Assembly (NCBI GenBank): GCA_963662465.1
Contig: OY759599.1
Span: forward strand, 5,888,001-5,952,000
Direction of reading: 5' to 3'
Source: Desulfatiglandales bacterium
GTDB lineage: Bacteria > Desulfobacterota > DSM-4660 > Desulfatiglandales > Desulfatiglandaceae
Length of the DNA: 64,000 nucleotides
Shown piece by piece: positions 1-8,725 of the stretch; position 1 is the stretch's first letter; the number at the start of each line of letters is the position of its first letter. The translations under genes were made by a program, and so were the position numbers. The notes under the pieces are model-generated. The model did not search any database. It was not told the DNA's origin and saw only the letters and a list, made by a program, of their open reading frames with translations.

Positions 1-1394
1 CTTGCTACCTTAACAAGAGCGTCATTCCAATCCTTCTCCAATGTAGATGCTACCAAACGATTATCAGGGTCCACTGCATTGTATTGACGTTTTGCCCGTA
101 AAGCTTCATAACGCGCTTGTTCCAACTCCAGTTCCCGTTGCCGTTTCACTGAATCCGATTCATGGTTGATTTTCTTTATCGCCTCTAAAGAAGCTTCTAA
201 TCCTATCGGTGATAATACTTTCAAAAGAAAATCCGTAACAGCCCGGTCAACACGGAATCCACCAAATGATATACACGCCTTTCCTGTCTCGTTACCTCGT
301 TTGCGGCTACACTCATAACGTTTATGAGTTCCATTACGGCCTTGGTATCGTACAATTAACTTTCTACCGCAATGACCGCATCTTAACAAACCTCCAAGCA
401 ATGCCTTTCCTCCGCGAACAGCTCCTCTCACCACCGGCCTTTTCTTATTTGTATTTTGAGTTAGTATCTCCATGTTATACTGGTACTCTTCCCATGTGAT
501 GTAACCTTCATGGTGATCCAATATTAAAACGTCCCAATCCTTTTGTTCCTTACGAATACCCTTCCTCAGTCGCTTGCGCCCATTTTCAAAAGTTACCTCT
601 GTTTTAGTCCGGCCATAGACGTAGGCGCCGGCGTAAATTGGGTTGTTCACTATATGCGACAAGGTATGAGCAGACGGTAGTTTCCACTCTATCCTACGTT
701 CCCCTTTACCGCTGGAAACAACAGCAATCTCAATCTGTTCATCTAAAAACCAATGATACACCCGACGAAGAGTACCATATTCCTTGAATTTCGTGAATAC
801 CAAATCAATGACTTCTTGAATTCGTTTGTCAGGATTCTTTTTCAGCTTATTATCCCTAGTCTTTATATAGGCTGCCGGTACAGTAAGATATAATTCTCCC
901 CGCTTCGCTTTTTGTTGTATTGCCGCCTGAGAACGCTCCTTTAATAGGCTCAATTCCATTGCACTCATTTCTCCCTTTAAGCCCAGGAGCAAACGATCAT
1001 TTGACACGTTTAGGTCATAAACAGCTCCTTGATCTACAAGAACCGTTTTTTTAAGTGCACAGATCTCAAGCAACGTATGCCACTCTCGACCGTTGCGGGC
1101 CAACCTCGATGATTCAATCGAGAAAATACCCCCTATTCTTCCTTCACACACAGATGAAAGAAGATTCTGGAATCCTTTTCTGTCAACGCATCCCGATGCA
1201 GTTATTCCCAAATCACTATCTATCATCCATATGTTTTTCTCGTTCCATCCTAATTCTTTTGCCCTTTCTACCAAGCCATATTGTAAAAGTTGGCTTTCAC
1301 GATGCTGTAGAACTTGGCCCGGTGTTGACTGACGGATATATATACATGCTTCCCGACTAATATGTTCAGCATTGATTTTATTGCTCATGCTCAT
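1..1394 (-). CDS. Large serine recombinase (resolvase, recombinase, zinc ribbon and coiled-coil domains); 3' end runs off the window
   Basis: Absent from the ORF track because there is no stop in the window. Manual translation from ATG 1394 gives MSMSNKINAEHISREACIYIRQST (catalytic YxRxS), then SRLARN, NNPIYAGAY and LLRCGHCGRKL in the same frame. Confidence 0.92.
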   Translation of the reverse strand, partial: MSMSNKINAEHISREACIYIRQSTPGQVLQHRESQLLQYGLVERAKELGWNEKNIWMIDSDLGITASGCVDRKGFQNLLSSVCEGRIGGIFSIESSRLARNGREWHTLLEICALKKTVLVDQGAVYDLNVSNDRLLLGLKGEMSAMELSLLKERSQAAIQQKAKRGELYLTVPAAYIKTRDNKLKKNPDKRIQEVIDLVFTKFKEYGTLRRVYHWFLDEQIEIAVVSSGKGERRIEWKLPSAHTLSHIVNNPIYAGAYVYGRTKTEVTFENGRKRLRKGIRKEQKDWDVLILDHHEGYITWEEYQYNMEILTQNTNKKRPVVRGAVRGGKALLGGLLRCGHCGRKLIVRYQGRNGTHKRYECSRKRGNETGKACISFGGFRVDRAVTDFLLKVLSPIGLEASLEAIKKINHESDSVKRQRELELEQARYEALRAKRQYNAVDPDNRLVASTLEKDWNDALVKVA

Positions 1395-1411
1395 TTCCAC
1401 CTTTCTTTTCT

Positions 1412-1968
1412 CGAAATGTCAACCGAAAATTGACCTCTTGCGACAACCGAATTTTGCCCCCACATGAGTAATTGTAACCTGCGACGCGGTCATAGAAGGC
1501 TCCGGTGGCTCCTGCCGAAATATCCATTAAAAGAGCGACCATAACCGCACCTTAGTCAGCTTCCGACCAGATAATCATCTGGTAAGTCGAGAAAACCCTT
1601 TTTCGTCGCTAATTCGAGTTCAATCAAATACCCTATCTCGCCTTTCATTTTGATCTGTGAAACCATCCACTTCGGTAACCGAATCGTGACGGGGATACGC
1701 CTCAGATGTTCAGGACTCCTTTTTCGACCAGCGCCTTTTCGACTCCCACCTCTCATTTTCATCGCTCCTTTTCACCTTCAAATTCGTCCAATATTTTTGA
1801 ATACCGCGTACGTTTTTCAATTAAACACCTATTTCTATCGGAAAATAAGCTATTTATGATTTATAGTTACGATTTTTCTGAGTCGGATTAAGCTGCTTGC
1901 TTCAACAACTCCAGTCTCTTGACTGCTTCCAATATCAGACCGCGATTTTACGTTAGTGAAACTACTTC
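1412..1968. mobile_element. 557-bp insertion flanked by 8-bp direct repeat TCTTTTCT; IS21-like end repeats at its left side
   Basis: TCTTTTCT at 1404-1411 and 1969-1976. Tandem motifs CAACCGAAAATTGACC and CAACCGAATTTTGCCC at ~1420-1460. Removing the insert restores an ATGA stop/start overlap with the recombinase. Confidence 0.7.
1556..1762 (-). CDS. Small putative DNA-binding protein (RGGxRxGAGR motif plus RHH-like segment); paralog of 4261..4470
   Basis: Manual alignment gives 43/62 identical residues with the ORF downstream of istB. AAGGAG RBS upstream. Confidence 0.75.
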   Translation of the reverse strand: MKMRGGSRKGAGRKRSPEHLRRIPVTIRLPKWMVSQIKMKGEIGYLIELELATKKGFLDLPDDYLVGS

Positions 1969-2123
1969 TCTTTTCTATTTCTGTTACCCTCAGAATTTTG
2001 CCAGAAACCTGACAGAAGCTCTGCAAGGAAATCAATCAATCTATTTCGTGTTTCTATTGGAATTTCGATCGGTGATGGTAAATAATCCCAAAGCCGAAGT
2101 TGATGATATTTTTGTTTCGTCAT
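1962..2123 (-). CDS. Small hypothetical protein of the recombinase element; 3' end altered by the insertion
   Basis: AGGAGG RBS before ATG 2123. It would be translationally coupled to the recombinase if the insertion were absent. Confidence 0.6.
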   Translation of the reverse strand: MTKQKYHQLRLWDYLPSPIEIPIETRNRLIDFLAELLSGFWQNSEGNRNRKEK

Positions 2124-2425
2124 CTTTCCTCCTTGTTTTCGAATTGACTTCATCAGGAGGAAACGGTATTTTTCTATTCACTATTAAGCAATATAAATTC
2201 TTAAGCGCCCTGATTTCGATAGCGGGTTTTGAGCCGAGGGATATCTTTTCATACTTTGGATTGGTCATCCACGCAGGTATCAATTCATGGCGACCATCAG
2301 GTTTCTTTGTTACAAAACAAGTTTCTCCACGATGGTTTCTGGTACCTACCACATAAATTTCTTCACCGGTTCTTGGGTGAAATGGGTAATATACCCAAGT
2401 TATAAACTGGTTTTGATGGGCATTA
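2041..2425 (-). CDS. Y4bD/Y4pK-like (DUF5372-like) accessory protein of the recombinase element, apparently lacking its own 5' end
   Basis: The frame is open upstream of the track start: ...YNAHQNQFITWVYYPFHPRTGEEIYVVG...IPAWMT. These motifs resemble small ORFs I recall preceding such recombinases. Confidence 0.55.
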
Positions 2426-2428
2426 TAT

Positions 2429-2477
2429 AGTGGTTCTGAGGGGGCTCGGGGATGGCAACATCCCCCGGCTACCCGGC
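2429..2477 (+). ncRNA. 3' end of a group II intron (3' half of domain V plus domain VI)
   Basis: GGTTCTGAGGGGGCTCGGGGATG-GCAA-CATCCCCCGGCTACCCGGC: DV 3' strand, DVI hairpin with a GNRA loop, and a bulged branch A in CTACCC. Confidence 0.8.
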
Positions 2478-2701
2478 CGTCGCAATATGAAGGAAGGTGG
2501 TAAAGCGAAATGTGAAAATTAGTGGATTACGAACCAAAGAGGCACGTTTAGCCTTGTTTCAACTACAAGGTCGAACGACAGTCTCATCAGCGCGGGCAAT
2601 GGTCCTACCCAATGTTTTGTGTTTATTTGGAGTTGTGTGAGTGTCCATAAATTTGGATGAAGCTATTTTGGTTCACTTAACCAAGAAAAAGGAGATAATC
2701 G

Positions 2702-2782
2702 ATGCCTGAATTGATCTACGAATCTGTTGTTTCAATCGCCAAAGCAATTCGCAATAAGAAAATCTCGTCTTTTGAGGTAGTA
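2702..2782 (+). pseudogene. N-terminal fragment of the amidase, cut by ISAzo13
   Basis: AGGAG RBS; MPELIYESVVSIAKAIRNKKISSFEVV is a typical amidase-signature family N-terminus. The sequence then switches to the IS end. Confidence 0.8.
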
Positions 2783-4150
2783 AGGGAATTCCCAAGAAAT
2801 AAACTACCCAACTCCAGATTCAATAAGTACATCCCATTTGGGCAGTGTGTCGGAACGTTTAATTCTGTTTTCGTAAGGTTTCATTTCTTTTTTTGTAAGC
2901 CGGATTCCCTTCTTATATGCCTTTTCCACCAACGTGACAATGGGCTTTATCCCTTTCCATGTCATCGTAGATGCCCAATTGACTGCTTTTGATATTGAAT
3001 CCAATATTTCTCCGTTCCAATGTCCCTCCAATATTCCCCAACATCTTTCAACCGGATTGTACTTACTATGATAGGGAGGATAATAAACCAGGCGGATTCG
3101 CAAACCTGTTTTGTCACTGAATTCGGTCATTCTGCGAATGAATTGAGTCCGACCGCTTGCTGAATTCGGACCATTGTCAAGATTGATAACCAACTCGTTT
3201 ATATGAAGATAGGTAATTCTGTTTTTTTCCCACCACATCTCTAAACAGTCAACGATGAAATCACTTGTTTCAAAAGATGTGCCGAAAAAAATAGAAAGCA
3301 TTCCGCTCAAAACGTCAAGAATACCGTACGGAACCAATTTCATTTCGGGATTCATATCATGGTCTTCAGCTTTCTTCGCTTCCCGATCCCGTGACTTTCC
3401 GTTTCTTGAGAACTCGCCTATATTCACTTTTGCCTTGGCATCAATAGAAATCCGATGAGAGTTGGGATTCTCATCAGAGTCACGGTTTGCCTTCCATACA
3501 TTTTCAAATATTTCATCGACCTGTTTTATCTTTTTCGCAGGTTTGGATTTCAGGACTCGTTTCAGGTTGTATCCCATGCGGTTCAACATGTTGATCAGAG
3601 TGTTGTTAGAGGGAAGATCCTCACCGTCGTATCCTTTCTCATCAATCAGTGCCTTTTTGAGAGCTTTTCCTGTAATTCTTGTATATGTGATAGAGCTTTT
3701 CATGGCAGGGTCCGCCTGAGTTTGAGGTTCTGCAAGGGATATTATGTCTGCTTTAATACCGGGAATCGTGTCTTCTGTTTTCTTTTTTCCCCGTCCCTCA
3801 AAATTATCCATGCATCTGATCCCGCTTTCGGCTTCTTTAAGGCCTTTTGTTACACACTCTCTCCCCCATCCCATCTCCCGTTCAGCTTTGTATGCACTCC
3901 CGTTGAAATATTTCCTGGTAATGTCGGCCTGATATGCTCTTCTTTTGTAACCAGTCAGTCGTCTGCATGCATCTTTTATCAGATTTTTTGTTTCTCCGTC
4001 TTGGGCGCTAACCAAAATGGAACCAGTTTTGCTACTCCAAACGGAACCAGATATTGCGCACTGGTCTTTTCCTTTTAGAAGGGTTTTCTTGTAAATTTGT
4101 TAGAGGTTGCATGAAAGAGTATATCAGATGGTATTTTAAAAATGCTGGTG
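2781..4150 (-). mobile_element. ISAzo13-family insertion sequence; upstream terminal repeat appears truncated
   Basis: End TAAGGGAATTCCCAAGAAATAAACTACC at 2781 abuts the transposase stop. No matching full inverted copy found near 4150. Confidence 0.7.
2804..4015 (-). CDS. ISAzo13 family DDE transposase
   Basis: Motifs ISIDAKAKVNIGEFSRNG, INLDNGP, YYPPYHSKYNPVERCWG. Confidence 0.93.
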   Translation of the reverse strand: MVSAQDGETKNLIKDACRRLTGYKRRAYQADITRKYFNGSAYKAEREMGWGRECVTKGLKEAESGIRCMDNFEGRGKKKTEDTIPGIKADIISLAEPQTQADPAMKSSITYTRITGKALKKALIDEKGYDGEDLPSNNTLINMLNRMGYNLKRVLKSKPAKKIKQVDEIFENVWKANRDSDENPNSHRISIDAKAKVNIGEFSRNGKSRDREAKKAEDHDMNPEMKLVPYGILDVLSGMLSIFFGTSFETSDFIVDCLEMWWEKNRITYLHINELVINLDNGPNSASGRTQFIRRMTEFSDKTGLRIRLVYYPPYHSKYNPVERCWGILEGHWNGEILDSISKAVNWASTMTWKGIKPIVTLVEKAYKKGIRLTKKEMKPYENRIKRSDTLPKWDVLIESGVG

Positions 4151-4260
4151 AGACACGTAGCGTTCTGGTTGAAGAATCAGTGATGAGGATACCATCAATA
4201 TGGTGATGGCAGAGAAGAGGGGATTAGATTTTTCGGTTAAGGGCAATGCTTATTGAGGAA

Positions 4261-4470
4261 CTATTTGTCTATGTCATAGTCGTCCGGTAAATTCAGGAGG
4301 CCTCCCTTCGCCAATTGATCCTCAATCAAATATCCAATTTCCCCGTTTTTTTTCAGCTGTAGAATCATCCATTTGGGGAGACGAATGGTGAGCAGTTCAC
4401 GTCTCAAATGTTCCGGTTTCTTTCTTCGGCCGGCGCCTACCCGTTTTCCACCTCTCATTTCAAGCTCCAA
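4261..4470 (-). CDS. Small putative DNA-binding protein (RGGxRxGAGR motif plus RHH-like segment)
   Basis: Paralog of 1556..1762; co-oriented just downstream of istB. Confidence 0.75.
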   Translation of the reverse strand: MELEMRGGKRVGAGRRKKPEHLRRELLTIRLPKWMILQLKKNGEIGYLIEDQLAKGGLLNLPDDYDIDK

Positions 4471-4556
4471 GACAAGGTAATTTCTGATATTCGTGTAACG
4501 AGATTCAAACAGACCGGTGATATTCAGACCTCAAAACCGGCCCTTTGGCGAACATC

Positions 4557-5276
4557 TCATTTTCTGAGGGAAGGACCATCAATATGAATGTTGATGCAGC
4601 GATGGTTGAGACGATCCAGCAAGGCATCGACCATGTCCTTTGGTTCAAGCAGCGAATACCATTGTTCAGGTTGAAGATTGGTCGTAATAATTGTGGACCG
4701 ACCGGCTTCATAGCGATCTTTCATGAGTTTAAAAAAGGCGTTCATCTGCTCTTTTTTGAGGGTCAGGTATCCCAGTTCATCGAGCAGAAGCAGGTCATAT
4801 CTGCAAAGGGCATTGAGGAGTTTCGGGGTGGACCGATCTGCCAAAGACGCATAGAGCTGATCCAGCAAATCCTGAACATTATAAAAACGCCCCCGGTACC
4901 CGGCAATAATGGCTTGACGAAGGATCCCCACGGCCAATCCCGTTTTGCCGACGCCGGTTTTTCCATGGAACACGATGTTTTCTCTTCGGCTGATAAAGTC
5001 AAGGCCGGACAACGTCATGATCCGGCTCTTCTGTATTCCCGGCTGAAGATCAAACGGAAAGGAGTTGAGGGTCCATTCCCATGGAAGCTTTGCAATCTGG
5101 ACCCGATAGATCATGCTGCGCTCCTGCCGGAAACGTAATTCCTCAGCCAGGAGATTGTAGATGACCTCGTGAATGGAAAAACCGTTCTTTTCAGCCGAAG
5201 CCAACTGTTCTTCGAGAGCCTTCAGCATGCCTTTAAACTTCAAATCAATGAGTAACTGTTCAATTTTCTTTTTCAT
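4557..5276 (-). CDS. istB: IS21 helper AAA+ ATPase IstB
   Basis: Walker A GKTGVGKT, Walker B LLLLDELG, STIITTN, ALLDRL, GPSLR. ATGA overlap with istA. Confidence 0.95.
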   Translation of the reverse strand: MKKKIEQLLIDLKFKGMLKALEEQLASAEKNGFSIHEVIYNLLAEELRFRQERSMIYRVQIAKLPWEWTLNSFPFDLQPGIQKSRIMTLSGLDFISRRENIVFHGKTGVGKTGLAVGILRQAIIAGYRGRFYNVQDLLDQLYASLADRSTPKLLNALCRYDLLLLDELGYLTLKKEQMNAFFKLMKDRYEAGRSTIITTNLQPEQWYSLLEPKDMVDALLDRLNHRCINIHIDGPSLRK

Positions 5277-6655
5277 AGATCAAAAAAGTCTCCCGCGATA
5301 TAATCGAGAATAATGTTTTCCAGACGCGACAAATCAAAAAGTCCATATTTAAGCGCCTGTGTTATGGCTTTCAAAAAAGGTTCCCCGGGATAAGTGCGTT
5401 TCAGATGAAGCAACCGACGTAACTTGACCACACCGCGACCGTGACTTCTTTTCTTCAGTTCAGCCACATACTCATCCAGGATGGCATCCTCTCCCGTCAA
5501 CAGCTGTTCTTCTTTTGAAGGGATTCGGGGATCTTTTTTTCTTCGAATGGGAACATGGTGACCGGGCAGGGTTGTTCGGGTGTTGCGTTTATCCAGTATG
5601 CGGTCATGTTCCGCCACTTTTGTGTTTTTGTCGTAAACGATGACCTTGAGCCAATGTTTCTGTACTTCCAGGGAGTTCCCAATCAGCGCTTCAGGGACTG
5701 AATAGCGGTTGGTGTCCAAGTGCACATATCCCTGAACATCGGCTACCCTGTGTTCTGCCACATAGACTGGCGGCTGGTATGCCGGTAAATCAATGAGATA
5801 TGGCTTTTCAATGACATAGGCCTCATCCGGCGTCATCCCTAAAGCCCGTTTAAACTTTTTATCGCTTGTATTCCGGCACCAGTCGATTGCCTGCCGGTTC
5901 AAATCCTGCCAGCTAACAAATGTTCTACCGGGAAGAAAATTGTTTTCCACAAAATGAAAAGGCCTTTCCACACGAGCACTTCGATTGGCGTCTCCTACAG
6001 CATGGGCCTCAAACCGGGTTCCATACATATCGCCGAAGTATTTCATTTCAGGCGCAATCAATGCATCAGGCCCGGTGCCGCCGGCCACAATAACATTGGT
6101 GTTGTCAACCATGCACCGGGAACACACCCCGTCCATAAACTCGAATGCTTTTTTTAGGAAAACCTTGCACTCAAACCGGGTAAAACAGGGGTAATACTGA
6201 ATAAAAATCCTTCGGCAAAAGGCCAGGGTCAGGGACGCGCACTGGGTCGACATTTTTTTCCCATTAATGACAACCAGATGGGGTGACGTATCATGCTGCA
6301 TCTCCTGACCGGGTTTAAAATGGTATTGGCCCGCCCGTCTTTTTTTACGTTCCCGGATCTCGTACTTTCTCATAATCCAGGTCAGACTCTGATAAGGGAT
6401 TTTGATCTGTTGGCGGCTTTCCAGTTCCTCGGCTACTCGCACGGCATTTCCTTTACATTCCTTGAAAAGCTCGCGGATCAACGGGACATGTTCTTCATAC
6501 CGGGAGTTCCTTTGGGGTACCGCCTCTTCGTCATGATCATCTAAAACCTTCGTGACGGTATTGCGACCGGCCTTCAGGGTTTTGGCGATGTCGCGCAAAC
6601 TCATGCCGGTTTTTTTCAATTCCACAATGGCATCTTTTTTGGATTGTCGGATCAT
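5273..6655 (-). CDS. istA: IS21 family transposase IstA
   Basis: N-terminal HTH; DDE motifs PGQEMQHD, VDNT, RVERPF; NRYSVP. Confidence 0.95.
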   Translation of the reverse strand: MIRQSKKDAIVELKKTGMSLRDIAKTLKAGRNTVTKVLDDHDEEAVPQRNSRYEEHVPLIRELFKECKGNAVRVAEELESRQQIKIPYQSLTWIMRKYEIRERKKRRAGQYHFKPGQEMQHDTSPHLVVINGKKMSTQCASLTLAFCRRIFIQYYPCFTRFECKVFLKKAFEFMDGVCSRCMVDNTNVIVAGGTGPDALIAPEMKYFGDMYGTRFEAHAVGDANRSARVERPFHFVENNFLPGRTFVSWQDLNRQAIDWCRNTSDKKFKRALGMTPDEAYVIEKPYLIDLPAYQPPVYVAEHRVADVQGYVHLDTNRYSVPEALIGNSLEVQKHWLKVIVYDKNTKVAEHDRILDKRNTRTTLPGHHVPIRRKKDPRIPSKEEQLLTGEDAILDEYVAELKKRSHGRGVVKLRRLLHLKRTYPGEPFLKAITQALKYGLFDLSRLENIILDYIAGDFFDL

Positions 6656-7536
6656 AATTGGGTCGCTTTCTTGAGTTCCAGTGCTTGTTTTTCTATCTTT
6701 TTCACCCAGGTTTTGAGCGTTTGTTTCTTCAACTGATCGCTTTTTGGGTAATGGACATGCGAAACGGTTTTCACCAGACGTTTGAGAACCGCATATACCA
6801 TTTCAATATCCTTGAACCATTTGCCTTCCGGTCCATCATGAACTTCTTTGGCTTGTTTAGACTGGGTTCTTTGTTCGAGAACTTTTATGAAAAGGGATGG
6901 ATTTTCCAGCATGTGGTCTCGAACAGACCGGTTGCTTTTCTGGTAATGTGCGTAGAAACGGGCCAGTTCCCTTGTGGATAGAGGTTCTTTTTCCAGGTGG
7001 GCCAACAGTTTTTGTGCGTCTTCACCGTTGGCGCGCGCCAACGGCGCCATGACATGGCTGGCAGCCCAGGTTGAAAGTGAGCCTGCAATCACGGTTCTCA
7101 AAATATTTTCCGGCAGGGCTTCAACCAGGTCCAGCCGCCGTTTTACAAAACTCTTGTCGCGCCCTATTCGGGTTGCAATATGGGAGAGGCTGCACCCAAA
7201 ACGCCGATGTAATTCCTGAAGTAAAACAGACTGCTCAATGACTTCCCATTGCCGTTCATTGGCCTTGGTTAAAAGCGAAAACATGGCATTTTGTTCGTTT
7301 TCTTTTGAGAATTGGACACATATCCGGTCCTTTCCACAAGCACAAAGCGCTCGAACACGCAGGTAGCCATCAATCAGAATCAGTTTGTCTTTTTCTTCAA
7401 TAGCCAGGGCCGGAACGATCTGCCCGTAAGTTTCGATGGAATCCCTCAATCGCTTTAAAGCCTGGTGATTCATTATCCGGCAATGAGCGTAACGCAACTC
7501 CAGCAAATGAATATCAACGGTTCGGATGGATTCCAT
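6652..7536 (-). CDS. ParB/RepB/Spo0J-like protein (ParB N-terminal domain plus HTH)
   Basis: LRDSIETYGQIVP...LIDGYLRVRA, then HTH SLSHIATRIGRDKSFVKRRL. Stop overlaps the istA start. Confidence 0.9.
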   Translation of the reverse strand: MESIRTVDIHLLELRYAHCRIMNHQALKRLRDSIETYGQIVPALAIEEKDKLILIDGYLRVRALCACGKDRICVQFSKENEQNAMFSLLTKANERQWEVIEQSVLLQELHRRFGCSLSHIATRIGRDKSFVKRRLDLVEALPENILRTVIAGSLSTWAASHVMAPLARANGEDAQKLLAHLEKEPLSTRELARFYAHYQKSNRSVRDHMLENPSLFIKVLEQRTQSKQAKEVHDGPEGKWFKDIEMVYAVLKRLVKTVSHVHYPKSDQLKKQTLKTWVKKIEKQALELKKATQL

Positions 7537-7933
7537 ACCCAGTCTCCCGAAAGATTTCCTCTATGGTTTCTCCAAGACTGACCCAATTTCCTTGCCGGAT
7601 CTCCTTTACCTGTTTCACAATCACAGGACGTCTGGGAAGCGAAAGAACCTGAAACAGACGGCCATCAAACCCAATCAGATCCTTGTCCAACAAGCCATCG
7701 CGGGCATCGATATATTGATCCAAATGCACCTTTAAAATCCGGCAGATTCTGTCGTAACCATAATAAGAGAGCCCGTTTTTGTCAGATACCAACACCAGAA
7801 AAATGTAGAGCAGCAGCTCATGATGATTCAGGCTCTCCCAAAAGCCGTTTCTCAAAAAACGATGCTCCAGAAAGCCGAAGCTTCCATTGATGACACGCAC
7901 TCTTTCGGGAAAAAGGACTCTTTTTTTGATCAT
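7514..7933 (-). CDS. Winged-helix-like hypothetical protein of the IS21 element
   Basis: ELLLYIFL..SDKNGLSYYGYDRIC..L.......ARDGLLDKDLI resembles a replication-initiator-type wHTH. AGGAG RBS; identical in both copies. Confidence 0.7.
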   Translation of the reverse strand: MIKKRVLFPERVRVINGSFGFLEHRFLRNGFWESLNHHELLLYIFLVLVSDKNGLSYYGYDRICRILKVHLDQYIDARDGLLDKDLIGFDGRLFQVLSLPRRPVIVKQVKEIRQGNWVSLGETIEEIFRETGYGIHPNR

Positions 7934-7945
7934 TTTTTTCTCCTG

Positions 7946-8389
7946 TCATGGATATGGGGTTTTCTCAAAGCCTGTTACATCTGAAAAAACCCTCCCTGCA
8001 TAAGCACGGCGAGGAAAATGGTCCACAACAACCCCGATCGACCCGCAAAAAAGACAGCTGGGTCGGTTCCCCGACCGCTTTTTGGGTTCAATATCACAGT
8101 CTTTTTGAGGTGTTGAACTATCATCACCAGGGTTCAGTCCATTTTTTTTGGATTTTTTTGTTTTTTCGTACAAACGACGGCGCTCTTTCCCTTTTTTCGA
8201 ATTGCGGTATTTCCCCTGAGCTTTCCGGTGCAGCTGTCTTTGGCGTATCCTGCGACATCGTTCCCCACAATAGGCCTGGCCACGCCAACACGACCGACAG
8301 ACGTGAAAAAAGCAACCACAACATCGGCATTGAACCACTCTTAAAAGGACATCTCCCATCATTCCGGCCTTGCAATTGGCCGGAAACAC
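7946..8389 (-). CDS. Cys-rich, basic putative Zn-binding protein of the IS21 element (true start may be the internal MMG)
   Basis: CRCCG...CRSC...YCGERC, a basic region, then CLFCG. Present in both copies. Confidence 0.7.
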   Translation of the reverse strand: MFPANCKAGMMGDVLLRVVQCRCCGCFFHVCRSCWRGQAYCGERCRRIRQRQLHRKAQGKYRNSKKGKERRRLYEKTKKSKKNGLNPGDDSSTPQKDCDIEPKKRSGNRPSCLFCGSIGVVVDHFPRRAYAGRVFSDVTGFEKTPYP

Positions 8390-8438
8390 ACTTATATAAA
8401 ATTGGCGTGTGTGTGGCTTCCGGCTCTATCCGGTGGTC

Positions 8439-8474
8439 AAAAAAGAAGGCCCGAAGCGGCTACTTCGGGCCTTC
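8439..8474 (-). terminator. Intrinsic terminator in the IS21 leader (copy 1)
   Basis: 12-bp stem GAAGGCCCGAAG/CTTCGGGCCTTC followed by T6 on the coding strand. Confidence 0.75.
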
Positions 8475-8725
8475 ACCATCCATTCTACAAAGTAAATCGC
8501 ATTTCCACTTAACCAAGCCTCTGTCTTGGAAGAAGAAAACCAAATCCAAAGAAAATAGATTTTATAAAAATTTATTGAAAAGTAAATCTACATCAACGAC
8601 TCCTTTGCCGCCACTTATGGATCCCTCATCGTCCGCTATACCTGAGGGCCGTACTCACCGGCGGTGACAGCCAATGGTTCAATTTCCATTAGCAAACTTG
8701 GTTCAGTTTTGATTAGCGTTGAAGC

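What the first reader, a model, noticed from the sequence alone, without database searches (positions are those of the whole stretch)
1..2477. Serine-recombinase element apparently integrated into catalytic domain V of a group II intron
Seen: the recombinase module ends at ...GGGCATTATAT and is followed at once by AGTGGTTCTGAGGGGGCTCGGGGATGGCAACATCCCCCGGCTACCCGGC. That is the 3' half of DV plus an intact DVI with the bulged A; the 5' half of DV (catalytic triad) is missing. Known: DV is the most conserved intron sequence and is essential for splicing; large serine recombinases integrate site-specifically. Inference: the element uses intron DV as attB, a parasite of a retroelement that inactivates it and whose excision would restore it.
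Basis: partly seen in the sequence, partly recalled or inferred. Interest (0 to 1): 0.78.

Follow-up and report, generated by a model that had tools for sequence, protein, structure and literature searches.

The report
Recombinase element targeting group II introns
A small jumping DNA element driven by a large serine recombinase has inserted itself between the two catalytic hairpins (domains V and VI) of another selfish element, a group II intron, and it carries a gene whose start codon is joined to its body only when the element is cut out as a circle.

Summary
The quoted sequence is at window 2418-2477 and its intron nature is confirmed, but DV is not split. A complete DV lies 3.17 kb upstream, just left of the window. 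Window 1-2442 is the right-hand three quarters of a 3,166-bp element inside an 824-nt ORF-less group II intron. The genome holds 7 element copies (98.8-99.8% alike) in at least 3 intron types, and 2 empty introns. The crossover maps to the DV/linker boundary (GGTTC-TG-AGGG).

Host intron parts are more diverged than the inserts in 10 of 10 pairs, so the copies integrated independently. Relatives (at least 70% identity) in other organisms show the same: a DV-only model found DV in 19 of 24 eligible loci, always 35 nt past the recombinase gene on the opposite strand; 16 of 22 right flanks are DVI-like (controls 40 of 1000).

The element encodes orfA (distant DUF5372), orfB and a 697-aa recombinase. 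orfA is split by integration: virtual circles rebuild it in frame in 19 of 19 loci and 6 of 6 local copies. orfB is predicted to bind the coiled-coil base (0.76, control 0.00), as directionality factors do.

Seven literature searches found no description. This scan noted the same element on other copies in this genome; I reached the same reading independently.

The parts
1..1400 (-). First 466 codons of the 697-aa large serine recombinase gene. The gene runs on to 690 nt left of window base 1 (whole gene = L001:810-2900, minus strand).
   Evidence: ORF. Pfam Resolvase 68.8 bits (res 19-169), Recombinase 47.3 (195-315), Zn_ribbon_recom 34.4 (334-378), HTH_17 30.9 (624-668). R23 and S25 invariant in 17 sequences; long helices 401-442 and 448-476 = coiled-coil.
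1404..1976 (-). Extra module of about 570 bp found only in this genome's copies. It holds ORF68 (1556-1762, no family; a paralogue of a gene present in about 40 places in the genome) and a 54-aa ORF. It is a secondary insertion between orfB and the recombinase gene.
   Evidence: relatives L034-L037 align to window 1976-2445 and again from about 1404 leftwards, and lack the part between; element length 2600-2608 bp in relatives, 3166-3167 here; many 72-73% matches to 1620-1761; no family.
1965..2123 (-). orfB, 53 aa (60-64 aa in relatives): candidate recombination directionality factor.
   Evidence: conserved in 14 sequences (10 invariant columns); in relatives it overlaps orfA and the recombinase start; predicted to bind recombinase residues 391-411 and 486-543 (score 0.76, best control 0.00); no Pfam family.
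2044..2430 (-). Body of orfA (129 codons, open up to the element's right end, with no start codon before the conserved YP[YF]HPR block). Distant DUF5372 relative with an SH3-like N-terminal domain. Its Shine-Dalgarno, ATG and first few codons (about 5-9, depending on the exact crossover) lie at the element's other end, 699-714 nt left of window base 1.
   Evidence: DUF5372 20.6-20.7 bits, below the cut-off of 25; orfA-like ORF of a distant relative scores 53.9 bits; fold.
2413..2436 (+). Right-end recombinase arm (P arm): conserved TTGATGGGCATTAT plus 10 nt that partly mimic the DV 3' strand. It also encodes residues H/Y-N-A-H-Q of orfA on the other strand.
   Evidence: anchor found in 24 relatives (a 25th, L076, is a spurious match)..
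2430..2442 (+). 13-nt GTGGTTCTGAGGG present at both junctions and once in empty introns. The inferred crossover dinucleotide TG is at 2437-2438.
   Evidence: all junctions; all 13 genomic copies = 5 left junctions + 6 right junctions + 2 empty introns; limits of identity in c3, c7 and relatives.
2439..2477 (+). Intron domain VI (hairpin with GCAA loop and bulged A) and the intron's 3' end at 2477; the 3' exon starts at 2478.
   Evidence: hairpin 2440-2474 with one unpaired A on the 3' side; same DVI in the empty intron 3334730-3334806, Rfam 57.2 bits; flanks diverge after 2477 in all copies.

Best explanation
Window 1-2442 is the right-hand part of a 3,166-bp IS-like integrative element whose only enzyme is a 697-aa large serine recombinase (LSR). 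The element entered an 824-nt ORF-less group II intron by conservative site-specific recombination between its own attP and an attB made of the DNA for the DV 3' strand, the 3-nt DV-DVI linker and the DVI 5' strand. The crossover lies at, or next to, the TG that follows GGTTC. DV stays whole at the left junction, and DVI is moved 3.17 kb away. Because DV is the most conserved part of group II introns, the element finds sites in many intron lineages and genomes, which makes it a parasite of a retroelement. The core element (2,600 bp in relatives) is a three-gene operon, orfA-orfB-LSR. The attP site lies inside the 5' end of orfA, so integration separates the ribosome-binding site, ATG and first few codons (left end, right after the LSR stop codon) from the body (right end). 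Full-length orfA can be made only from the excised circle or a tandem copy. orfB stays whole in the integrated state and is the likely directionality factor that lets the LSR excise the element, which would restore the intron exactly. Shown here: the anatomy, the copies, the empty sites, independent integration, conservation of the target in other organisms, and the split-gene geometry. Inferred: the recombination chemistry, the exact crossover, loss of splicing, the roles of orfA and orfB, and present-day activity.
For: Copies and limits: 7 copies of the 3,153-bp insert, pairwise 98.8-99.8% identical. The host intron hits Rfam D1D4-7 at 78.1 bits, and the empty copies hit Intron_gpII at 57.2 and 67.5 bits. 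Junctions: 5 copies sit in one intron type. c3's left flank is a different DV, and c7's right flank is a third type of DVI. The repeated 13-mer is not a true duplication (ACGG... at the left against GTGG... at the right in c3), as expected for attL/attR and not for a target-site duplication. All 13 genomic 13-mers are accounted for. Independent integration: the intron 5' parts differ by 1.6-4.2% and the inserts by 0.2-1.2%, intron greater than insert in 10 of 10 pairs, with discordant order (c5/c6: 0.22% against 3.73%). Other organisms: 4 MAG contigs and 35 metagenome loci at 70% identity or more. The DV-only model R1, built from this genome's own DVs, found a full DV in 19 of 24 eligible loci, all on the opposite strand and exactly 35 nt past the LSR match, with no hit anywhere else in 174 kb except one cut hit (L060) and one inverted DV, both at element ends. 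Rfam found intron domains beyond the LSR 3' end in 12 of 20 loci, from families D1D4-2, -6 and -7. 16 of 22 right flanks are DVI-like against 40 of 1000 random stretches. LSR: all three defining domains plus HTH_17, with R23 and S25 invariant. Split orfA: the virtual circle gives SD (GGAGG, or AGAGG in 4 loci) + 8 nt + ATG in frame with orfA in 19 of 19 loci holding both ends and in 6 of 6 local copies tested. 16 of 20 distinct orfA bodies have no in-frame ATG/GTG/TTG before the invariant YP[YF]HPR block, yet codons 1-38 have dN/dS 0.26. orfB: complex score 0.76, best of 3 controls 0.00. That mark was reached by 116 of 157 solved complexes and 2 of 215 mismatched pairs; the runs share at least 91% of contacts and the partner's pLDDT is at least 64 (my own alignments were used, so the counts hold only roughly). 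The contacts at 391-411 and 486-543 flank the coiled-coil helices 401-476, which is the place where verified RDFs dock (PMC12286644, passages read).
Against: No circle or attP junction was seen, so excision and present activity are unproven. 5 of 24 eligible relatives lack a DV at the left end (L046/47/48 share one flank; L058 has a degenerate 5' half; L068), and so does local copy c7, whose left end abuts a broken IS91-family transposase gene. 6 of 22 right flanks failed the DVI test. c3's two flanks do not match the one native copy of its intron type, so some flanks have been exchanged after integration. The two junctions of single relatives do not all share the same dinucleotide (L042 and L058), so the crossover is placed only to within about 1-2 nt. 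The filled introns are somewhat closer to each other (1.6-4.2%) than to the empty ones (3.3-5.5%), so some copying of the composite, or a subfamily preference, is not excluded. The in-frame geometry of orfA is inherited from one ancestor and the arm spacing is also fixed by recombinase binding, so 19 of 19 is not 19 independent events; dS is lower in codons 1-38 (0.52) than in 39-80 (1.07), which shows DNA-level constraint too. 4 of 20 orfA bodies have a GVG-type start (GTG) before the conserved block. A solved LSR-RDF complex exists (SPbeta, per PMC12286644), so the orfB pass could partly reflect likeness. The LSR model is poor (mean pLDDT 56.5).
Confidence: 0.85

Rival explanations
1. The element entered one intron once, and the composite (intron plus insert) was then copied as a unit, by retrohoming with a reverse transcriptase supplied in trans or by segmental duplication. 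On this view the element does not target introns itself.
For: Five of the seven copies lie in one intron type with the same DVI. Filled introns are slightly closer to each other than to empty ones. c1 and c2 lie only about 0.8 kb apart.
Against: Intron parts are more diverged than inserts in 10 of 10 pairs, and the orders disagree. c3 and c7 have other intron types at a junction. Relatives elsewhere sit in introns of three Rfam D1-D4 families with many different DV sequences, always at the same position. The host intron has no RT gene, and its DV and DVI are 3.17 kb apart.
Confidence: 0.05
2. The 13-nt repeat is a target-site duplication made by a transposase of another kind, and the serine recombinase is a passenger or resolvase.
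For: A 13-nt direct repeat flanks five copies.
Against: No other transposase is encoded; the accessory ORFs have no family. The repeat is not identical in c3 (ACGG against GTGG) and shrinks to 4-8 shared nt in relatives. The element's arms carry the repeat letters themselves.
Confidence: 0.02
3. It is a host-tamed switch: a gene-intervening element, like skin in sigK or the fdxN element, whose programmed excision turns the intron or a downstream gene on.
For: The best NCBIfam match is XisF (114.3 bits, far below its cut-off of 375). Excision would restore the intron.
Against: There are seven copies in non-coding, repeat-rich surroundings. The hosts are ORF-less introns of several lineages. The element is spread across organisms and samples. 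All of this is the pattern of a selfish element.
Confidence: 0.05
4. The split of orfA is an accident of where attP lies. orfA is translated in the integrated state from a non-standard or flank-borne start, and the conserved left-end GGAGG-N8-ATG is only part of the recombinase's binding arm.
For: Arm spacing is fixed by recombinase geometry and is inherited. 4 of 20 bodies have a GTG before the conserved block. dS is reduced near the arm. L073 keeps the motif although its target differs, which fits either view.
Against: 16 of 20 bodies have no internal start before residues that are invariant and under purifying selection. The flank upstream of the body is a variable host DVI. An SD at 8 nt from an in-frame ATG occurs in 25 of 25 cases. 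orfA, orfB and the LSR gene overlap like an operon.
Confidence: 0.25

Closest known systems
Serine integrases of phages and islands with small directionality factors (phiC31, Bxb1, TP901-1, A118, SPbeta SprA/SprB)
   Same: The same three-domain enzyme with a coiled-coil inserted in the zinc domain. Short attP/attB sites with a central crossover. A small partner protein is predicted at the DBD2/coiled-coil junction, as for verified RDFs (PMC12286644, passages read).
   Different: The element is 2.6-3.2 kb and has no phage, transfer or cargo genes. It is multi-copy (7 in one genome). Its attB is the DNA of a ribozyme core in another mobile element. It has an extra C-terminal HTH_17 domain, and a gene is split by attP. 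The names of the individual phage systems are recalled, not from a call.
Gene-intervening elements excised by large serine recombinases (skin/SpoIVCA, fdxN/XisF, gin in gerE)
   Same: A small, partly non-phage element interrupts a functional sequence and precise excision restores it. XisF is the best NCBIfam match (114.3 bits, cut-off 375). For gin I saw the search listing and abstract of PMC5595907.
   Different: Those are single-copy, host-timed and sit in host genes. This one is multi-copy, sits in selfish introns of several lineages and shows no sign of host control. It fails the XisF equivalog cut-off.
Serine-recombinase transposons Tn4451/Tn5397 (TnpX, TndX) (recalled, not from a call)
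   Same: The large serine recombinase is the only mobility enzyme, a circular intermediate is expected, and there are several insertions per genome.
   Different: Those carry resistance or conjugation cargo and use loosely defined sites centred on GA. Here the site is a specific conserved RNA-gene sequence and the inferred core is TG.
Integration-dependent immunity of mycobacteriophages such as BPs (recalled, not from a call), and circularisation-dependent expression in Tn916-type elements and IS junction promoters (recalled)
   Same: attP, or the element joint, lies inside or in front of a gene, so the integrated and the free form express different products.
   Different: There a tyrosine integrase cuts off a 3' degradation tag, or a promoter is brought to a gene. 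Here a serine recombinase site separates the ribosome-binding site and start codon from the gene body.
Other recombinase elements that parasitise group II introns, seen in this scan (e1-753213, e1-5056763) and in the genus-mate G007 (L017)
   Same: They are relatives of the same enzyme family. L017 carries DUF5372 (53.9 bits) + DUF6788 + LSR (36% identity) and also sits in a group II intron on the opposite strand.
   Different: They split the reverse-transcriptase gene (in L017 at ...RPIGIPT | FEDKVLQ...) and not the DV/DVI junction. No DV stands at their ends.

Membership tests
Large serine recombinases (serine integrases) | N-terminal resolvase-type catalytic domain with the nucleophilic serine in a Y-x-R-x-S context | tested here: met
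   Pfam Resolvase 68.8 bits, residues 19-169. Y21, R23, Q24 and S25 are invariant in 17 sequences. The motif wording is recalled.
Large serine recombinases (serine integrases) | Recombinase domain (DBD1), then a zinc-ribbon domain (DBD2) with a coiled-coil inserted | tested here: met
   PF07508 47.3 bits and PF13408 34.4 bits. C341, C344, C364 and C376 are invariant. Helices 401-442 and 448-476 (the model has low overall confidence).
Large serine recombinases (serine integrases) | Conservative attP x attB recombination at a 2-bp core, without target duplication | tested here: inconclusive
   The junction comparison fits: arms plus a short shared core around TG, and the repeat is not identical in c3. 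The chemistry and the exact core were not tested.
Large serine recombinases (serine integrases) | Excision depends on a directionality factor that binds the DBD2/coiled-coil junction | tested here: inconclusive
   A prediction only: orfB scores 0.76 against 0.00 for the controls, with contacts at 391-411 and 486-543. There is no binding or activity assay.
Group II intron (the host of the element) | 34-nt DV with the catalytic triad and a 2-nt bulge, followed by DVI with a bulged A | tested here: met
   Rfam RF00029 57.2 and 67.5 bits on the empty copies, and 45.8 bits across the left junction. Sequences.
Group II intron (the host of the element) | Domains I-IV of the ribozyme | tested here: met
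   RF02012 (D1D4-7) 78.1 bits, 1321-1461 nt left of window base 1.
Group II intron (the host of the element) | Intron-encoded reverse transcriptase in DIV | tested here: not met
   The empty copies are about 825 nt long and the ORF listing of the element shows no RT gene, so this is an ORF-less derivative. Its 5' end reads TTGCG rather than the usual GTGCG (the usual form is recalled).
XisF-type fdxN-element recombinase (NCBIfam NF041201) | Score at or above the equivalog cut-off | tested here: not met
   114.3 bits against a cut-off of 375.
DUF5372 (Pfam PF17342), for orfA | Score at or above Pfam's gathering cut-off of 25 bits | tested here: not met
   The window's orfA scores 20.6-20.7 bits. 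7 of 16 members reach E up to 0.01. The orfA-like ORF of the distant relative L017 scores 53.9 bits, so distant kinship is likely but membership is not shown.
Serine-recombinase transposons of the TnpX/TndX type | GA dinucleotide at the crossover and at both element ends (recalled) | tested here: not met
   The inferred core here is TG or its neighbours within GGTTCTG.

The most novel reading that the evidence does not exclude
A whole branch of large serine recombinase elements has specialised on the DNA of the group II intron ribozyme core, and it sets its own direction with a physical gene switch. In the free circle the left-end ribosome-binding site and ATG are joined to orfA. Ribosomes then read through the overlapping orfB start, so little directionality factor is made and the recombinase integrates. 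Once integrated, orfA has lost its start, orfB is translated freely, and excision becomes possible. Sister branches use the same DUF5372-plus-recombinase module against other conserved intron sequences (the RT gene), so the family as a whole would be a dedicated hyperparasite of retroelements.
Probability: 0.2. Interest if true: 0.85.

Novelty: new variant of a known kind. Interest (0 to 1): 0.72.

Why it matters
It is a clear case of one selfish element using the most conserved sequence of another as its landing pad. That explains how a site-specific recombinase can be multi-copy and can move between distant hosts. It probably disables the intron by pulling DV and DVI apart, so it may limit intron spread. 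It may also shuffle DV and DVI between introns: mosaic DV/DVI pairs, one inverted DV and chimeric flanks were seen. For engineering, the family offers dozens of natural attP/attL/attR sets with readable arms, a compact 2.6-kb unit, a candidate small directionality factor, and a natural design in which integration switches a gene off by removing its start codon.

Tried and rejected
- Rfam on the window alone: 0 hits at gathering level, and only chance-level snoRNA-like rows in 1800-3000. The fold of 2400-2500 is no better than shuffles.
- A simple DV regular expression on distant homologues found nothing useful. Rfam at E up to 0.5 found no DV beside the 29-44% homologues. They turned out to sit elsewhere: L017 is in an RT gene.
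- L073 (50% identity) has no DV at its ends.
- The promoter/terminator scan of the element found 6 promoter-like sites against 6.0 expected and 3 terminators against 3.2, so it is uninformative.
- Laying contigs of 4 runs showed joints that skip 3,165-3,168 bp in X1 and X4. These may simply be the paralogous empty introns, so they are no proof of excision. There was no 'go back' (circle) joint. All runs were contigs, which cannot show rare forms, transcript ends or expression; the RNA-library contigs (X6) may be DNA.
- Search for an attP junction: 0 in the 93 sequences held and 0 in viral contigs.
- Search for the reciprocal product of c7's odd left junction: none. All 16 other copies of the distal half of that IS91-family gene are joined to their own proximal half.
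- Fold search with orfA gave only generic SH3/KOW/Tudor-like barrels, best Z 5.4, and Foldseek found no match at E 0.001 or better, so no function can be read from the fold.
- The LSR fold has low confidence (pLDDT 56.5) and I used it only for secondary structure.
- The literature holds nothing on DUF5372.
- I rejected the idea that the right-junction GTGGTTC is a piece of a split DV, because DV is whole at the left junction.
Full report
**Coordinates.** The window is G000:C1:5888001-5952000. Positions left of window base 1 are given as 'nt left of the window'. Locus L001 covers them (L001 position = window position + 1500).

**1. The observation.**
- The quoted letters stand at window 2418-2477. 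Taken alone they cannot be told from chance. Rfam finds nothing in the whole window at gathering level and nothing intron-like at E up to 10 in 1800-3000. The stretch 2400-2500 folds no better than shuffles (z 0.02).
- The proof comes from comparison. Window 1-2477 is one of 7 near-identical stretches in an 8.16-Mb one-contig genome, and the likeness ends at 2477/2478, not at 2428. Extending the query leftwards shows a unit from about 1,520 nt left of the window to 2477.
- Some loci match only the first 790 nt or so of that unit. At genome 3333981-3334806 this part runs straight into a 48-nt match to window 2430-2477. That is an empty site.

**2. The host is a group II intron.**
- Rfam finds group-II-D1D4-7 at 78.1 bits in the left part of the window's unit (L014:1540-1680).
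- It finds Intron_gpII (DV+DVI) at 57.2 and 67.5 bits in two uninterrupted copies.
- The intron begins TTGCGAC..., 1,513 nt left of the window. It ends at 2477 and is about 825 nt long when empty, so it has no RT gene.
- The genome is full of introns: 42 of 49 listed RF00029 matches pass the cut-off.

**3. Junctions.**
- The left junction reads ...GAGCCACGTGAGGTGAAAGTCTCATGCGTGGTTC TGAGGG | TAATAGCGGCATAATACACACC... DV is therefore complete there.
- The right junction reads ...GGGCATTATATA | GTGGTTCTGAGGG GGCTCGGGG... (DVI).
- The 13-mer GTGGTTCTGAGGG stands at both junctions and once in the empty introns. All 13 copies of it in the genome are 5 left junctions, 6 right junctions and 2 empty introns.
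- It is not a target duplication. In copy c3 the left junction has the target's ACGGTTCTGAGGG while the right keeps GTGGTTCTGAGGG. In c7 the right flank departs after GTGGTTCTG, and the left flank joins at AGGG.
- Together these place the crossover in GGTTCTG, best at the TG that follows DV's last base. Relatives narrow it to the same 1-3 nt but do not all agree on one dinucleotide (L042, L058).

**4. Independent integrations.**
- The insert (3,153 bp between the repeats) occurs 7 times. One copy (c1) is itself interrupted by 2.85 kb.
- Among the five copies in the main intron type, the intron 5' parts differ by 1.57-4.24% and the inserts by 0.22-1.17%. Intron exceeds insert in 10 of 10 pairs, and the orders disagree (c5/c6 0.22% against 3.73%; c1/c4 0.22% against 2.69%).
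- c3's DV belongs to another intron type, whose native copy at 3307323 has a different DVI. c7's DVI belongs to a third type. The 3' exons all differ.
- Against this reading: filled introns are a little closer to each other than to the three empty or partial ones (3.3-5.5%).
- c7's left end abuts an IS91-family transposase gene (Y2_Tnp 144.7 bits, Zn_Tnp_IS91 86.3 bits) broken in mid-ORF exactly at the element's end. No reciprocal junction exists in the genome. I read this as a later one-sided rearrangement that started at the crossover point, but that is not shown.

**5. Other organisms.**
- Distant homologues in related genomes (29-44% identity; one 79% fragment) gave intron D1-D4 hits nearby but no DV.
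- Closer relatives came from the species collection (4 contigs at 71-82%; the titles name Deltaproteobacteria/Thermodesulfobacteriota MAGs and one 'Dojkabacteria' MAG) and from metagenomes (39 loci, 35 of them at 70% or more).
- Using the two conserved arm motifs as anchors, the left ends abut many different canonical DVs, and the right ends abut hairpins with a bulged A.
- Formal tests:
  - A DV-only covariance model built from 12 DVs of this genome found a full DV in 19 of the 24 loci that hold the recombinase C-terminus plus at least 75 nt. Every hit is on the opposite strand and exactly 35 nt past the match. The misses are L046/47/48 (one shared flank, with D1D4-6 nearby), L058 and L068.
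  - All 21 hits in 174 kb lie at element ends. These include one cut by a contig end (L060) and one inverted DV at the right end of L053.
  - Rfam found intron domains beyond the recombinase gene in 12 of 20 loci, from D1D4-2, -6 and -7.
  - A strict DVI-like test passed 16 of 22 right flanks, against 40 of 1000 random genomic stretches.
- At 50% identity (L073) the gene order is kept but the flank is not an intron. At 36% (L017, a genus-mate) a DUF5372 + DUF6788 + recombinase element splits an intron RT gene.

**6. Genes of the element.**
- *The recombinase.* It has 697 aa: Resolvase, Recombinase and Zn_ribbon_recom domains plus a C-terminal excisionase-type HTH_17. R23 and S25 and four cysteines are invariant. 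The coiled-coil helices are at 401-476 (a low-confidence model).
- *Length and the extra module.* Relatives are 2,600 bp long (15 loci), 2,603 (4) or 2,608 (1). The local copies are 3,166-3,167 bp because of an extra module of about 570 bp (window about 1404-1976) with ORF68, a member of a gene family found in about 40 places in the genome.
- *Two small conserved ORFs.* orfA and orfB precede the recombinase gene and overlap end to end.
- *orfA.* Its body is open up to the element's right end and lacks a start. 16 of 20 distinct bodies have no in-frame ATG/GTG/TTG before the invariant YP[YF]HPR block, although codons 1-38 have dN/dS 0.26 (0.29 for codons 39-80).
  - The left end, directly after the recombinase stop codon, reads (recombinase sense) GGAGG, 8 nt, ATG.
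  - Joining the ends as a circle puts this ATG in frame with orfA in 19 of 19 loci holding both ends and in 6 of 6 local copies tested. The junction peptide is conserved.
  - orfA is a weak DUF5372 match (20.7 bits, cut-off 25). Its N-terminal 55 residues fold with pLDDT above 90 into a generic SH3-like barrel.
- *orfB.* It has no family. It is predicted to bind the recombinase at 391-411 and 486-543. The score is 0.76 and the best of 3 controls is 0.00. That mark was reached by 116 of 157 solved complexes and 2 of 215 mismatches. The runs share at least 91% of contacts and the partner's pLDDT is at least 64. My own alignments were used, so the counts hold only roughly. This is the DBD2/coiled-coil junction where verified directionality factors dock (PMC12286644, passages read). 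A solved complex of that kind exists, so part of the score may be likeness.

**7. Mechanism proposed.**
- Shown: the anatomy, the target, independent spread and the split geometry.
- Inferred from the established mechanism of serine integrases: dimers on attP and attB synapse, cut at a 2-bp core, rotate and religate, giving the hybrid junctions seen. orfB would redirect the coiled-coils to allow attL x attR.
- Inferred from the geometry: full-length orfA is made only from the circle. A further guess is that its translation across the overlapping orfB start lowers orfB in the circle and so favours integration.
- Splicing is probably lost because DVI is 3.17 kb away from DV. This was not tested.

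**8. Physical evidence sought.**
- Contigs of 4 runs show the element in two metagenomes and in an RNA library, and joints that skip 3,165-3,168 bp. These may be paralogous empty introns, and no circle joint was seen.
- No attP junction stands in the 93 sequences held, nor in viral contigs.

**9. Print and earlier notes.**
- Seven full-text searches, and passages of PMC9203015 and PMC6907783, gave no description of a serine recombinase element that targets group II introns, and nothing on DUF5372. Subscription journals are not covered by that library.
- Within this scan, earlier agents described the same element on other copies in this genome (e1-7817194, e1-7687113), including a helper gene that is whole only in the circle. 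They are not independent evidence.

**10. Verdict.** The kind (a serine-integrase element) is known. The target, the IS-like multi-copy lifestyle and the attP-split gene make it a new variant.

Noticed in passing
window 4000-8724: A repeat of about 4.7 kb with roughly 25 long copies in the genome. All its genes are on the minus strand: a 69-aa ORF (paralogue of ORF68 in the recombinase element, no family), IstB_IS21 (200.6 bits), an IstA-like protein (Mu-transpos_C_2, 60.9 bits), a ParB-HTH protein, an HTH_36-like protein (23.3 bits, below its cut-off) and a Cys-rich 147-aa ORF. This is an unusually gene-rich IS21-type element.
   Followed up: partly
window 2780-3999: An ISAzo13-type DDE transposase element (276.3 bits) with a few copies elsewhere. 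Its end at about 3999 abuts the 4.7-kb repeat, and it cuts a short ORF that starts at 2702.
   Followed up: partly
genome 4412618-4425056 (outside the window): Eight tandem copies, period 1,609 bp, of an IS91-family (Y2 transposase) gene segment. It is related to the gene that forms the left flank of copy c7.
   Followed up: no
genome 3333905-3334806 (locus L009): Two introns stand head to tail: the empty host-type intron starts at the very base after the 3' end of another intron's DVI. Several other introns are followed directly by GTGCGAC..., a new intron 5' end. Earlier notes of this scan say the introns of this region home to integron attC sites. I only saw that the 5' flanks of c1, c2, c5, c6, e2 and e3 share a conserved sequence.
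   Followed up: partly
genome 2366487-2366562 and copy c3 (4984107-4987350): Mosaic DV/DVI pairs. One intron joins the DV of the 3299317 type to the DVI of the 3216933 type. c3 joins the DV of the 3307323 type to a main-type DVI. This could be a footprint of recombination between element copies or att sites in different introns.
   Followed up: partly
L053:418-456 (metagenome contig): The right flank of this relative is an inverted DV instead of a DVI. That suggests an inversion between two copies or sites.
   Followed up: no
L017 (genus-mate G007, contig C735): A DUF5372 (53.9 bits) + DUF6788 (100.5 bits) + recombinase (36% identity) element splits a group II intron RT gene (RVT_1, 108.3 bits) at ...RPIGIPT | FEDKVLQ.... 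Here too the DUF5372 gene's conserved block starts right at the element's edge.
   Followed up: partly
L073 (metagenome contig, recombinase 50% identical): It has the same orfA-orfB-recombinase order and an SD-ATG right after the recombinase stop codon. However, the element is not next to a DV: an ORF that looks HNH-endonuclease-like to my eye lies at its right end. No family search was run on it.
   Followed up: partly
genome 3315895-3318746 (copy c1): Copy c1 of the recombinase element is itself interrupted by an insertion of about 2.85 kb inside the recombinase gene. I did not look at what it is.
   Followed up: no
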